The translations under genes were made by a program, and so were the position numbers. The notes under the pieces were generated by a model. It saw only the letters and a program-made list of their open reading frames with translations. It was not told where the DNA came from and ran no database searches. From UHGV virus genome UHGV-0200595: a DNA stretch of 22,035 bases; one strand, given 5' to 3'. Origin of the DNA: a virus. Of the stretch, positions 21,293 to 21,923 are shown piece after piece (the stretch's first letter is position 1; the number at the start of each line of letters is the position of its first letter).

Positions 21293-21622
21293 TTAGTTAC
21301 CCACGGATGAATTGAGCTTATTTCTGGTAGATGTGGCAATTTTCCCAACATTTTTTAACCAAGATCTTAAGAAAGAGATCTCGTCTTTAATATCATGAAT
21401 ATCCTCACTCTTTATACGATCAAGCTTGCCCTCTAGGCACTCGATAGAACTCTCAACACTAGACAGCGACATTCTTAAATCGTCTTGATCACGCTCCATA
21501 GAGTATTTTAGCGCCCAATGTTCGTTTTCTAGGTCCTTTATTTTTTGGGTTATGGAGTTCATCTGATAGTCATGTACAAACCCGGAAATAATTAACGCAA
21601 CTAAGCATAACCATTCAAACAC
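21293..21622 (-). CDS. AT-rich moron: small N-terminally membrane-anchored coiled-coil protein
   Basis: The minus-strand ORF sits in a clearly AT-rich island. A GTG start at 21622 is preceded by AAGGAG (6-nt spacer). An upstream ATG at 21667 lacks an SD and clashes with a divergent ORF. It has a TM helix (FEWLCLVALIISGFV) followed by heptad-rich sequence. Its stop directly abuts the gp16-like stop. Confidence 0.5.
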   Translation of the reverse strand: MFEWLCLVALIISGFVHDYQMNSITQKIKDLENEHWALKYSMERDQDDLRMSLSSVESSIECLEGKLDRIKSEDIHDIKDEISFLRSWLKNVGKIATSTRNKLNSSVGN

Positions 21623-21665
21623 ACAAATCTCCTTATTTTTCCTTACTCTACCATGAGGATATGCC

Positions 21666-21923
21666 ATGATTTACCCATCAAACTACCCACCAGTTTGCTT
21701 CTCTGGATACGAGCCTTGCAGTTTTTATGGAATTAATTACCCCATGCTCAAGAGCCTCGTTAGCATCCAAAATGGTCGAGTCTGCTATCAAGGATGCCCA
21801 CCTAACATTAGGTCCAATGTCGATATTGAACGTCTCAATGAAGCGATCAAGATCGTTATCGAGGCATTTCCCATACTCTCGCAGCCTGGCATGGTCGGCG
21901 GCTGGGGTGGAAAAGCCTCATGA
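21666..21923 (+). CDS. Hypothetical Cys-rich 85-aa ORF in the AT-rich island (uncertain)
   Basis: ATG with a GAGGAT SD-like sequence. Atypical composition, and overlapped by another + frame ORF. It may be non-coding. Confidence 0.2.
   Translation: MIYPSNYPPVCFSGYEPCSFYGINYPMLKSLVSIQNGRVCYQGCPPNIRSNVDIERLNEAIKIVIEAFPILSQPGMVGGWGGKAS

What the first reader, a model, noticed from the sequence alone, without database searches (positions are those of the whole stretch)
21293..21923. AT-rich moron island abutting the gp16-like gene: membrane-anchored coiled-coil protein, candidate superinfection-exclusion or abortive-infection factor
There is an abrupt GC drop. A minus-strand gene has a strong SD-GTG start and encodes an N-in TM anchor plus a roughly 90-aa heptad-rich domain. 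Its stop codon is directly adjacent to the gp16-like stop (TGA|TTA), with no intergenic terminator. This position corresponds to where P22-like phages carry sieA/hkc-type exclusion genes, and membrane-anchored coiled-coil proteins there often block DNA entry of superinfecting phage. The start codon is ambiguous (GTG 21622 versus ATG 21667). A divergent Cys-rich + strand ORF (21666-21923) overlaps the ATG option.
Basis: partly seen in the sequence, partly recalled or inferred. Interest (0 to 1): 0.5.

Follow-up and report, generated by a model that had tools for sequence, protein, structure and literature searches.

The report
hkcB-family moron beside P22-like gene 16
The AT-rich gene beside the phage's DNA-injection gene 16 is a real, conserved small membrane-anchored helical protein of the uncharacterised hkcB family, sitting where phage P22 keeps its exclusion gene sieA but unrelated to it, and the neighbouring "Cys-rich ORF" is only the antisense shadow of a broken protease gene.

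Summary
The observation largely holds. A minus-strand gene (21293-21622, GTG start, AAGGAG Shine-Dalgarno) lies in a 38% GC island, with its stop touching the gene 16 stop. It belongs to the hkcB family (HK620 hkcB 67% aa identity, epsilon34 gp14, CUS-3 hkcB; PHROG 5962), whose function is unknown. In every related locus with readable sequence after the stop, the gene abuts or nearly abuts a convergent gene 16. All members start at GTG, so the ATG at 21667 is not the start and the "N-in" topology is unsupported. Most members carry a portable extended -10-like box, or follow mnt on the same strand. AlphaFold2 gives one 107-residue helix with a short hydrophobic N-terminus. It is not SieA: no similarity, one hydrophobic segment, no FxRYPxEAxxFNK motif. 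It also matches no annotated exclusion or defence family. It occupies the sieA slot, never co-occurs with sieA, is under purifying selection (dN/dS about 0.26) and stays intact in five prophages with truncated gene 16. A lysogen-expressed inner-membrane exclusion role is therefore plausible (about 0.35-0.4) but untested. The + strand ORF (21666-21923) is the shadow frame of a ClpP-like gene remnant that lacks 313 bp present in near-identical relatives. Verdict: a new member of a catalogued, uncharacterised family, of modest interest.

The parts
21293..21622 (-). hkcB-family CDS of 109 aa with a GTG start and TAA stop. It has an N-terminal hydrophobic anchor (residues about 2-16) followed by one long predicted helix, and a conserved C-terminal motif EDIHxIxDxIxxLxxWLxNVGxIATSTRxKLN.
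   Evidence: The tblastn hits are HK620 hkcB (67% aa identity), epsilon34 gp14 and CUS-3 hkcB (46-47%). PHROG 5962 matches at E=1e-46 over residues 16-122 of the ATG-initiated ORF. An identical 109-aa protein, P0001, occurs on six metagenome contigs. dN/dS against HK620 is 0.26. AlphaFold2 gives a single helix at pLDDT 83.7.
21629..21634 (-). Shine-Dalgarno AAGGAG, 6 nt upstream of the GTG start.
   Evidence: It is read directly from the sequence. AAGGAG(G) at the same distance is invariant in the 28 distinct box-bearing upstream sequences aligned and is kept or only slightly varied in the rest.
21645..21653 (-). Extended -10-like box TGGTAGAGT (consensus TGnTAnnnT), a candidate promoter for hkcB itself. 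This is inferred, not shown.
   Evidence: It sits at -31 to -23 from the GTG, the same register as the invariant TGGTATCCT found in 46 of 60 related loci. In those loci sequence conservation starts at this box, below 10 unrelated upstream contexts. The two-hexamer scan does not test extended -10 promoters.
21623..21677 (-). A 55-nt AT-rich spacer between the ClpP-like remnant and hkcB. It contains the box, the Shine-Dalgarno sequence and the non-conserved ATG at 21667.
   Evidence: The same spacer separates the full-length ClpP-like gene from hkcB in L007 and L012. The in-frame ATG at -45 is seen only in the window's own lineage (the window, L007 and L010).
21678..21926 (-). The 3' remnant (last 82 codons plus stop) of a ClpP-like serine protease gene. 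It has no start codon and lacks the segment carrying the catalytic Ser and His, so it is probably a dead gene fragment.
   Evidence: It is 91% nt-identical to the 3' half of a 178-aa gene annotated as a ClpP proteolytic subunit in 128 E. coli genomes and 6 phage records. It is 99.7% identical to L007 and L012, where the gene is full length. The full-length protein passes the Pfam CLP_protease threshold (53 bits against a cut-off of 20.2). The upstream frame contains stops.
21921..21926 (-). Junction where a 313-bp segment present in L007 (positions 2848-3160) is missing, with TTA microhomology. The join creates a TATCAT hexamer 16 nt after TTGCCC, a weak promoter-like site at 21947-21920.
   Evidence: The evidence is the BLASTN coordinates and direct sequence comparison and the promoter scan (3 sites found against 1.9 expected, so not significant). 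No such site was reported in the undeleted L007 scan.
21666..21923 (+). An 85-codon + strand ORF, interpreted as a shadow (antisense, codon-coincident) ORF of the ClpP-like remnant and not as a gene.
   Evidence: Its codons coincide exactly with the ClpP codons. It stays open because the 80 sense codons contain no TTA, CTA or TCA, and its stop is generated at the deletion junction. The synonymous/nonsynonymous count cannot separate the two frames (9/12 in both). Gene callers and PHROG 7758 have nevertheless called it a gene.
19124..21292 (+). Gene 16 homologue (722 aa, ejection/DNA-transfer protein). Its conserved C-terminal tail is inherited together with hkcB.
   Evidence: Pfam Phage_P22_gp16 hits the identical-length gene in L007 and L008. 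The tail [36 protein letters not shown] is shared by all 59 hkcB-linked gene 16 copies, although their N-termini fall into at least 4 types.

Best explanation
IDENTITY (shown, about 0.95). Positions 21293-21622 (-) hold a divergent member of the hkcB gene family, an optional 'moron' placed stop-to-stop against gene 16 in the variable region between genes 16 and 9 of P22-like phages. It encodes a 109-aa protein that starts at GTG. The protein has a short hydrophobic N-terminal anchor followed by one roughly 90-residue helix that probably forms a homo-oligomeric coiled coil. The charge distribution across the family favours an N-out/C-in orientation, with the helix in the cytoplasm. EXPRESSION (inferred). 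The gene points against the late operon. It would be transcribed in the lysogen either from its own portable extended -10-type promoter (TGGTAGAGT in the window, TGGTATCCT in most relatives) or as a downstream gene of the prophage-expressed mnt operon, as its position in CUS-3 and in the distant prophage L070 suggests. FUNCTION (inferred, about 0.35-0.4). It is a lysogenic-conversion protein of the inner membrane that hinders DNA delivery by superinfecting P22-like phages, for example by disturbing insertion or opening of the gp16 channel in the cytoplasmic membrane. That would make it a functional analogue, not a homologue, of SieA. The neighbouring sequence 21678-21926 is a dead remnant of a ClpP-like moron gene, and the + strand ORF is its antisense shadow.
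For: IDENTITY AND ANATOMY. In every one of 59 loci tested the hkcB stop directly abuts the stop of a convergent gene 16. Two distant homologues (P0032, and P0033 at 24% identity) lie 3-4 nt from a gp16-like gene. THE GENE IS REAL. dN/dS is 0.17-0.32 in the unsaturated full-length comparisons involving the window, HK620, epsilon34 and SEN22. OPTIONAL MORON. The same gp16 tail occurs without hkcB in Huey, Dewey, Louie, CurroJimenez and phiSG1, where the tailspike gene follows directly, and the CDS is 38% GC against 50% for the window. EXPRESSION. The box is invariant at -31 in 46 of 60 loci and conservation begins at the box, under 10 unrelated upstream contexts. Most of the hkcB loci surveyed have an mnt homologue upstream on the same strand; it is directly adjacent in L070 (36-nt gap) and separated only by a YafO-type toxin module in CUS-3. 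FUNCTION (indirect). The gene occupies the slot of P22 sieA. No SieA-like gene was found in any of the fetched hkcB loci. hkcB is intact in 5 prophages whose gene 16 is truncated. It occurs in 154 of 5426 complete E. coli genomes. LITERATURE. [quoted passage not shown]
Against: There is no experimental datum on any hkcB gene; PMC2629481 lists it as of unknown function. It has no sequence or profile similarity to SieA or to any PHROG annotated as superinfection exclusion. Only noise-level PADLOC hits appeared (DpdH E=7.6e-5 at 20.8 bits; PbeC), which look like hydrophobic-plus-coiled-coil composition effects. If the helix is cytoplasmic, a block of a periplasmic conduit would have to act at or below the membrane. 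The hydrophobic core is only 13-15 residues, so true membrane spanning is not proven. Mutual exclusivity with sieA and linkage to the gp16 tail could both be plain consequences of physical adjacency in a mosaic genome. The promoter is a consensus-level inference. The window's box is TAGAGT rather than the family's TATCCT, and the standard promoter scan was not above chance.
Confidence: 0.4

Rival explanations
1. HkcB is a lysogenic-conversion protein that benefits the host or prophage through envelope or cell physiology, with no effect on incoming phage. Examples would be scaffolding or modulating a host inner-membrane complex, the stress response or division, as small membrane-tethered coiled coils do elsewhere.
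For: The architecture (extreme N-terminal short hydrophobic helix plus a long helix) carries no hint of enzymatic or DNA-binding activity. The only profile hits are generic coiled coils, and there are weak architectural matches to PspC and a Sec-independent translocase component. The prophage-type orientation and intactness in degraded prophages fit any host-beneficial function equally well.
Against: The family is confined to the site beside the ejection-protein genes of P22-like phages, even in distant members, and it occupies the sieA slot without sieA. Both features are more pointed than a generic fitness factor requires. The NCBIfam hits are far below their cut-offs.
Confidence: 0.2
2. HkcB is an abortive-infection or toxin-like membrane effector: a small membrane helix that depolarises or permeabilises the cell when triggered by an infecting phage.
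For: It is a small hydrophobic-anchored helical protein encoded in a prophage moron. In CUS-3-type loci it follows a YafO-type toxin module in the same transcription unit. There is a weak PADLOC hit to DpdH.
Against: No sensor partner is consistently linked to it, and its neighbours differ across at least 10 contexts. The single short hydrophobic segment is followed by an acidic helix (18 D+E against 14 K+R). No defence-family match rises above noise.
Confidence: 0.1
3. HkcB acts in the phage's own lytic cycle or entry. It might tune read-through of late transcription into the tailspike gene by convergent transcription, or act on gp16 during assembly or release, in which case the protein's membrane role in lysogens is secondary or absent.
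For: The zero-gap convergent junction with gene 16 and the co-inherited gp16 C-terminal tail are strictly conserved. The P22 ant moron has been proposed to affect late transcription into gene 9 (PMC2629481).
Against: Phages with the same gp16 tail but no hkcB exist as sequenced isolates, including Huey and CurroJimenez, so hkcB is dispensable for virion function. Purifying selection acts on the protein sequence. hkcB stays intact where gene 16 is destroyed.
Confidence: 0.1
4. The + strand ORF 21666-21923 is a genuine small Cys-containing protein gene that diverges from hkcB.
For: It is called by gene finders on contig L008 and matches PHROG 7758 (E=7e-53). AGGA lies 7 nt upstream of its ATG. 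The count of synonymous and nonsynonymous changes is the same as for the ClpP frame.
Against: It is exactly the codon-coincident antisense frame of a gene with a significant CLP_protease match in full-length copies. Its openness is explained by the absence of TTA, CTA and TCA sense codons, and its stop is created by the deletion junction. It has no Pfam match. It is found only where the ClpP-like gene is.
Confidence: 0.05

Closest known systems
hkcB of coliphage HK620 (NP_112088), epsilon34 gp14 and CUS-3 hkcB; PHROG 5962
   Same: They are homologous over the full length (67% and 46-47% aa identity). They share the length (107-109 aa), the GTG start with AAGGAG(G), the N-terminal hydrophobic segment, the C-terminal WLxNVGxIATSTR motif, and the placement stop-to-stop against a convergent gene 16.
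   Different: The window's protein is a distinct sublineage: no copy above about 80% nt identity occurs in 5426 complete E. coli genomes, and identical copies were found only on metagenome contigs. Its -10-like box reads TAGAGT instead of TATCCT. It is preceded by a ClpP-like gene or remnant rather than hkcC or the epsilon34 gp15-type gene. No member of the family has a known function.
SieA of phage P22 (superinfection exclusion, types A-C)
   Same: It occupies the same genomic slot, as the first gene after and convergent with gene 16, transcribed against the late operon. Both are small proteins predicted to associate with the inner membrane. SieA targets the step carried out by the gp16/gp20 conduit, whose genes lie next to it (PMC10883804).
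   Different: There is no detectable homology. SieA is a 164-aa multi-pass protein with the cytoplasmic FxRYPxEAxxFNK motif, whereas HkcB has one short hydrophobic segment, one long helix and no such motif. SieA has a 22-nt gap to gene 16 and HkcB has none. An exclusion phenotype is shown for SieA and untested for HkcB.
Small single-anchor phage exclusion proteins in general (for example HK97 gp15, cited in PMC10883804)
   Same: These are small prophage-expressed moron products with a hydrophobic anchor that block DNA entry. The resemblance is in concept only and rests on my own knowledge.
   Different: No sequence relationship was found in PHROGs or PADLOC. The partners and targets differ. 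The comparison is a lead, not a test.
ClpP / ClpP-related phage proteases (Pfam PF00574), for the adjacent remnant
   Same: The full-length 178-aa relative (L007, PhiR12, phiv205-1) passes the CLP_protease threshold.
   Different: The window keeps only the last 82 codons, with no start codon and without the Ser/His region. Even the full-length gene is a short, moron-located ClpP-like protein downstream of mnt. It is not the head-maturation protease and falls below the NCBIfam cut-offs.

Membership tests
hkcB family (PHROG 5962) | Full-length sequence homology to HK620 hkcB or epsilon34 gp14 | tested here: met
   The tblastn E-values run from 2e-46 to 1e-24. PHROG 5962 matches at E=1.1e-46, covering profile positions 1-107 of 109.
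hkcB family (PHROG 5962) | Location immediately after, and convergent with, gene 16 of a P22-like phage | tested here: met
   The gap is zero in the window and in all 59 loci tested. The gaps are 3-4 nt in the distant members.
hkcB family (PHROG 5962) | GTG start preceded by AAGGAG(G), with the hydrophobic segment at the extreme N-terminus | tested here: met
   
hkcB family (PHROG 5962) | Conserved C-terminal motif W-[LV]-x-N-V-G-x-x-A-x-S-[TA]-[RK] | tested here: met
   W88, N91, V92, G93, A96 and S98 (numbered on the 109-aa GTG-start protein) are invariant in 18 sequences.
SieA (P22 superinfection exclusion protein) | Sequence similarity to SieA types A-C | tested here: not met
   Pairwise BLASTP against P22 SieA gives 20 bits over 45 residues (E=0.005 in a two-sequence search), which is not significant. 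Only type A was available for direct comparison.
SieA (P22 superinfection exclusion protein) | Conserved motif FxRYPxEAxxFNK (PMC10883804) | tested here: not met
   The motif is absent from HkcB. A RYPxEA search of six-frame translations of all fetched loci found it only in P22.
SieA (P22 superinfection exclusion protein) | Multi-pass inner-membrane topology | tested here: not met
   HkcB has a single hydrophobic stretch of 13-15 residues and the rest is one amphipathic or charged helix. No dedicated TM predictor was available.
SieA (P22 superinfection exclusion protein) | Gene lies between genes 16 and 9 and is transcribed opposite to the late operon | tested here: met
   
SieA (P22 superinfection exclusion protein) | Blocks DNA injection by P22-like phages when expressed alone | not testable with these tools
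   This requires plating and potassium-efflux assays.
Other annotated exclusion or defence families (SieB, Imm, Sp, Cor, Llp and Abi models in PHROGs and PADLOC) | A profile match to a family annotated as superinfection exclusion or defence | tested here: not met
   The PHROGs scan to E=1 returned mostly families of unknown function and none annotated as superinfection exclusion. PADLOC gave only DpdH (20.8 bits) and PbeC (12 bits). NCBIfam hits were all far below their cut-offs.
ClpP-like protease (Pfam PF00574), for the remnant 21678-21926 | An intact ORF with a start codon and the catalytic Ser/His region | tested here: not met
   The 79-aa remnant gives no Pfam hit. Stops lie upstream and there is no start codon. 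Codons 1-96 are missing relative to L007. The full-length relative does meet the family threshold.

The most novel reading that the evidence does not exclude
HkcB is the founding member of a second, SieA-unrelated class of superinfection-exclusion proteins of P22-like phages. In this reading, a single-anchor inner-membrane coiled coil expressed from the prophage blocks formation or opening of the gp16 cytoplasmic-membrane channel. It would travel as one recombination module with the HK620-type gp16 C-terminal tail, the gp16 type that is partly insensitive to SieA.
Probability: 0.3. Interest if true: 0.55.

Novelty: new member of a known kind. Interest (0 to 1): 0.3.

Why it matters
Only about a third of sequenced P22-like phages carry sieA (PMC10883804), so what occupies the sieA slot in the others is an open practical question for phage exclusion and host range. 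This work shows four things about hkcB. It is the most consistent occupant of that slot in phages with HK620-type ejection proteins. It is a real gene under purifying selection. It has a defined start and a probable portable promoter. It stays intact in some prophages whose gene 16 is broken. Together these make a simple exclusion experiment well defined. If HkcB blocks the gp16 membrane channel, it would be a minimal tool (one helix) for probing the least understood step of podovirus DNA delivery. If it does not, the finding is an ordinary uncharacterised moron. The analysis also removes a false gene (the + strand ORF, PHROG 7758) that gene callers keep annotating.

Tried and rejected
1. Finding the window's source or more right-hand context by exact 43-mer search found nothing in genome contigs or viral contigs. 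Context came instead from contigs encoding the identical protein.
2. Window 21900-22035 has no blastn match in the phage collection.
3. The synonymous/nonsynonymous frame test of the ClpP frame against the + ORF was uninformative (9/12 in both), because the two frames are codon-coincident. The question was settled by the shadow-frame logic and the Pfam match instead.
4. Structure-based annotation failed. The AlphaFold2 model is a single helix, the BFVD Foldseek search gave no match, and the PDB profile search gave only generic or designed coiled coils.
5. The profile search of 1.84 billion representatives added only two credible distant members; the remaining hits were long coiled-coil proteins.
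6. The search for related loci for P0032 and P0033 in viral contigs, and for the family in genome contigs, found nothing.
7. I looked for a terminator or structured RNA between or after the convergent genes. No terminator-like site was found, fold z-scores ranged from -1.55 to +0.66, and Rfam gave only a sub-threshold chance hit.
8. The ATG 21667 start and the N-in topology were rejected.
9. The PADLOC DpdH hit was considered and set aside as composition-driven (20.8 bits, a short model, a hydrophobic-plus-coiled-coil query).
10. A YajC-mimic idea was considered, because YajC is a single-anchor inner-membrane protein required for P22 DNA entry (PMC10883804). It has no sequence support and was not tested.
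Full report
SETTING

The window is the late region of a P22-like (Lederbergvirus-type) phage. On the + strand it carries gp7 (17074-17763), gp20 (17763-19124) and a 722-aa gp16 (19124-21292). The finding covers the first 630 bases after gene 16. This is the start of the variable region between genes 16 and 9 that Villafane et al. named the 'ant moron' (PMC2629481).

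CHECK OF THE OBSERVATION

- **GC drop.** The drop is real but narrower than stated. The CDS 21293-21622 is 37.9% GC and the spacer to 21677 is 36.4%, against 49.6% for gene 16 and 50.3% for the window. Only 0.9% of 330-nt windows are as low. From 21678 on, GC is back to 47%.
- **Start signals.** The minus-strand gene has AAGGAG (21634-21629), 6 nt, then GTG (21622-21620).
- **Stop junction.** The TGA of gene 16 and the reverse-complemented TAA of the minus-strand gene are directly adjacent (21290-21295). No terminator-like hairpin, significant fold or Rfam family lies there.

WHAT THE GENE IS

tblastn against 50,697 phage records finds only HK620 hkcB (67% aa identity), vB_EcoP-611R6, epsilon34 gp14, SEN22_15 and CUS-3 hkcB (45-47%). 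In each of them the gene lies stop-to-stop against a convergent gene 16. PHROG 5962 (function unknown) matches at E=1e-46. Pfam, NCBIfam and PADLOC give nothing above noise.

The family is very small. Word-indexed searches of 5.8 billion protein clusters returned 10 and 21 proteins. An exhaustive profile search of 1.84 billion representatives gave 5 hits below 1e-10 plus one further credible distant member, P0033 at E=1.7e-6. Among complete E. coli genomes, 154 of 5426 carry a family member. All are annotated 'hypothetical protein', and the best is about 80% nt-identical to the window. A protein identical to the window's (with Met at the GTG start codon) occurs on six metagenome contigs.

Nei-Gojobori dN/dS against HK620 is 0.26 overall and 0.22-0.28 in each of three segments, so this is a protein-coding gene under purifying selection.

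START CODON AND TOPOLOGY

All annotated homologues in both subfamilies (VFEW/VLEW... and VYTTVI...) begin at the equivalent GTG, and the PHROG profile begins there. The in-frame ATG at 21667 exists only in the window's lineage. It also lies upstream of the conserved box described below. The protein is therefore 109 aa.

From that start the hydrophobic core (WLCLVALIISGFV; 15 residues in the epsilon34 type) begins at residues 1-4 with no basic residue before it. In 15 of the 18 aligned members the 15 residues after the core carry a net charge of +1 to +3. This is an inference, because no dedicated topology predictor was available and the core is short.

AlphaFold2 with an 18-sequence alignment predicts one continuous helix, residues 2-107, at mean pLDDT 83.7. 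Heptad scoring and the PDB profile hits (designed coiled coils, GCN4, vimentin, keratin) agree with a coiled-coil-forming helix. Foldseek against BFVD found nothing.

CONSERVED ANATOMY ACROSS RELATED LOCI

I collected 52 IMG/VR loci, the phage records and the metagenome contigs.

1. **Abutment.** In all 59 loci tested, the hkcB stop abuts the stop of the convergent gene 16 with zero gap. Two distant homologues, P0032 in a prophage of a 2.85-Mb genome (L070) and P0033 at 24% identity (L072/L073), lie 3 and 4 nt from a gp16-like gene.

2. **Linked gp16 tail.** The linked gp16 proteins have at least four unrelated N-terminal types. All end in the same tail, [36 protein letters not shown], and the tail variants track the hkcB subtype. 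hkcB and the gp16 tail therefore form one recombination module. P22 gp16, which is followed by sieA, has an unrelated C-terminal half.

3. **Optional gene.** The same tail occurs without hkcB in Huey, Dewey, Louie, CurroJimenez_Bas106 and Sodalis phiSG1, where the tailspike gene follows directly. hkcB is thus an optional insert that virions do not need.

4. **Portable box.** In 46 of 60 loci (29 of 37 distinct upstream sequences, 10 unrelated contexts), the sequence from -31 to the GTG is essentially invariant: TGGTATCCTGc.CAAAACTAAGGAGGTTGGTGTG. Conservation collapses immediately upstream of the TG. TGGTATCCT fits the extended -10 consensus TGnTATAAT at the informative positions. I read it as a portable, -35-independent promoter with a leader of about 16 nt. 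The window has TGGTAGAGT in exactly the same register (21653-21645).

5. **Loci without the box.** In these loci hkcB directly follows same-strand genes. In CUS-3-type loci the order is mnt, mnt, a 199-aa gene, a YafO-family toxin, then hkcB. In L070 it is mnt then hkcB with a 36-nt gap.

6. **mnt upstream.** Most of the hkcB loci surveyed have an mnt homologue upstream on the same strand. Since Mnt is a prophage-expressed repressor (PMC2629481), this supports expression in the lysogen. That step is inferred, not shown.

7. **Truncated gene 16.** In five loci gene 16 is truncated or internally deleted while hkcB is full length.

COMPARISON WITH SieA

P22 sieA sits in the same slot: convergent with gene 16, a 22-nt gap, with its own promoter. 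However:

- Pairwise BLASTP of HkcB against P22 SieA gives 20 bits.
- SieA is a 164-aa multi-pass protein with the FxRYPxEAxxFNK motif (PMC10883804), whereas HkcB has one hydrophobic segment and no such motif.
- No SieA-like sequence or RYPxEA motif occurs in any hkcB locus fetched.

HkcB is therefore not a SieA family member. Whether it works like SieA is untested. The literature gives context. SieA blocks injection at the inner membrane. Escape mutations lie in the C-terminal regions of gp16 and gp20. HK620 E proteins are partly insensitive. Only 22 of 66 P22-like phages have sieA (PMC10883804). gp16 alone forms the part of the channel that crosses the cytoplasmic membrane (bioRxiv 10.64898/2026.09.03.749273). 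No paper in the searchable library reports any function for hkcB.

THE REST OF THE INTERVAL

Bases 21665-21925 are 91% identical to the 3' half of a 178-aa minus-strand gene annotated as a ClpP proteolytic subunit in 128 complete E. coli genomes and in six phage records, including phiv205-1 and PhiR12. In the phiv205-1 and PhiR12 records examined it directly follows an mnt-like gene. Contigs L007 and L012 are 99.7% identical to the window here. They carry the full-length gene 55 nt upstream of hkcB on the same strand, and it passes the Pfam CLP_protease threshold (53 bits against 20.2).

The window, like L008, L009, L010 and L011, lacks 313 bp (L007 2848-3160) at a TTA microhomology. The missing segment contains the ribosome-binding site, the start codon and the first 96 codons, including the region that aligns with the catalytic Ser and His. 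The upstream frame contains stops. The remnant is therefore most simply a dead gene fragment.

One caveat applies. The left breakpoint lies within a few bases of the point where L007's homology to mnt-clpP modules begins. Independent illegitimate joins cannot be excluded as an alternative to a simple deletion.

The + strand 'Cys-rich' ORF (21666-21923) uses exactly the same triplets as the ClpP frame, read in reverse complement. It is open because the 80 sense codons contain no TTA, CTA or TCA, and its stop (TGA) is created at the junction. The substitution test cannot separate the two frames. The Pfam evidence identifies the minus frame as the coding one. PHROG 7758 and the gene call on L008 are best explained as repeated annotation of this shadow ORF.

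MECHANISM: WHAT IS SHOWN AND WHAT IS INFERRED

Shown:
- A conserved small gene under purifying selection, with a GTG start.
- An optional, AT-rich insert, always at the gene 16 stop.
- A single long helix with a hydrophobic N-terminus.
- No relation to SieA.

Inferred:
- Inner-membrane anchoring, with the helix probably cytoplasmic.
- Transcription in the lysogen from an extended -10 promoter or from Pmnt read-through.
- Homo-oligomeric coiled-coil formation.

Hypothesis (about 0.35-0.4): HkcB interferes with DNA delivery by superinfecting P22-like phages at the gp16 membrane-channel step.

Rivals:
- An envelope or physiology conversion factor (about 0.2).
- An abortive-infection or toxin-like membrane effector (about 0.1).
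- A role in the phage's own late transcription or entry (about 0.1).

VERDICT

The gene is a new, divergent member of a catalogued but uncharacterised family. The added value here is threefold: the defined anatomy (start, portable promoter-like box, strict junction with the gp16 tail module), the demonstration that it is not SieA-like, and the removal of a false ORF. Interest is modest (0.3).

Noticed in passing
window 21678-21978 (-); L007 2790-3409: The ClpP-like moron gene upstream of hkcB is full length in two near-identical contigs (L007, L012) but lacks 313 bp in the window and four other contigs. The left breakpoint nearly coincides with the point where L007's homology to mnt-clpP modules starts. 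Only the last ~24 nt of mnt survive in L007.
   Followed up: partly
window 21947-21920 (-): The junction fuses TTGCCC, 16 nt and TATCAT into a sigma-70-like site that the scan does not report in undeleted L007. It could drive read-through into hkcB, but the number of such sites in the region is not above chance (3 found against 1.9 expected).
   Followed up: partly
L001 4014-4798; L006 4014-4798; L019, L022, L029, L033, L040, L060: An mnt-like ribbon-helix-helix gene directly followed by the 178-aa ClpP-like gene recurs as a two-gene module. It occurs in P22-like ant morons and, in lambda-like PhiR12 phages, between tail genes L and K next to an antirepressor. The function of this short ClpP-like protein is unknown.
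   Followed up: no
L009 5390-5995 and L011 142-423 (just beyond the window's right end); window 21982-22011: A DUF805-family membrane protein gene on the hkcB strand, apparently split in L009, is followed by a GC-rich hairpin and T-run terminator about 20-50 nt outside the window. Inside the window a weaker hairpin (CUGACGAAG...CCUCGUCAG, -9.2 kcal/mol, z -1.55) lies at 22011-21982.
   Followed up: partly
P0009, P0010, P0007, P0008; L066 3-122: Some contigs encode chimeric or frameshifted proteins that keep only the last 37-80 residues of HkcB fused to unrelated N-termini. This shows recombination breakpoints inside hkcB that leave its 3' third attached to the gene 16 tail.
   Followed up: partly
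L004 (CUS-3) 1972-2975; L015, L041, L045: In CUS-3-type loci hkcB is the last gene of a same-strand string downstream of mnt. The string includes a YafO-family toxin (Pfam E=3e-11) preceded by a 199-aa gene, which may be a toxin-antitoxin pair.
   Followed up: no
L031, L033, L038, L053, L056: These prophage remnants have gene 16 reduced to its last 80-230 codons, or internally deleted, yet hkcB is full length.
   Followed up: partly
window 1-500: This is the only other stretch of the window with GC at or below 41% (about 34-40% in 330-nt windows). It was not examined.
   Followed up: no
L070 6319-8931: The gp16 homologue next to the distant HkcB relative P0032 is 870 aa and carries an added SLT (lytic transglycosylase) domain.
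   Followed up: no
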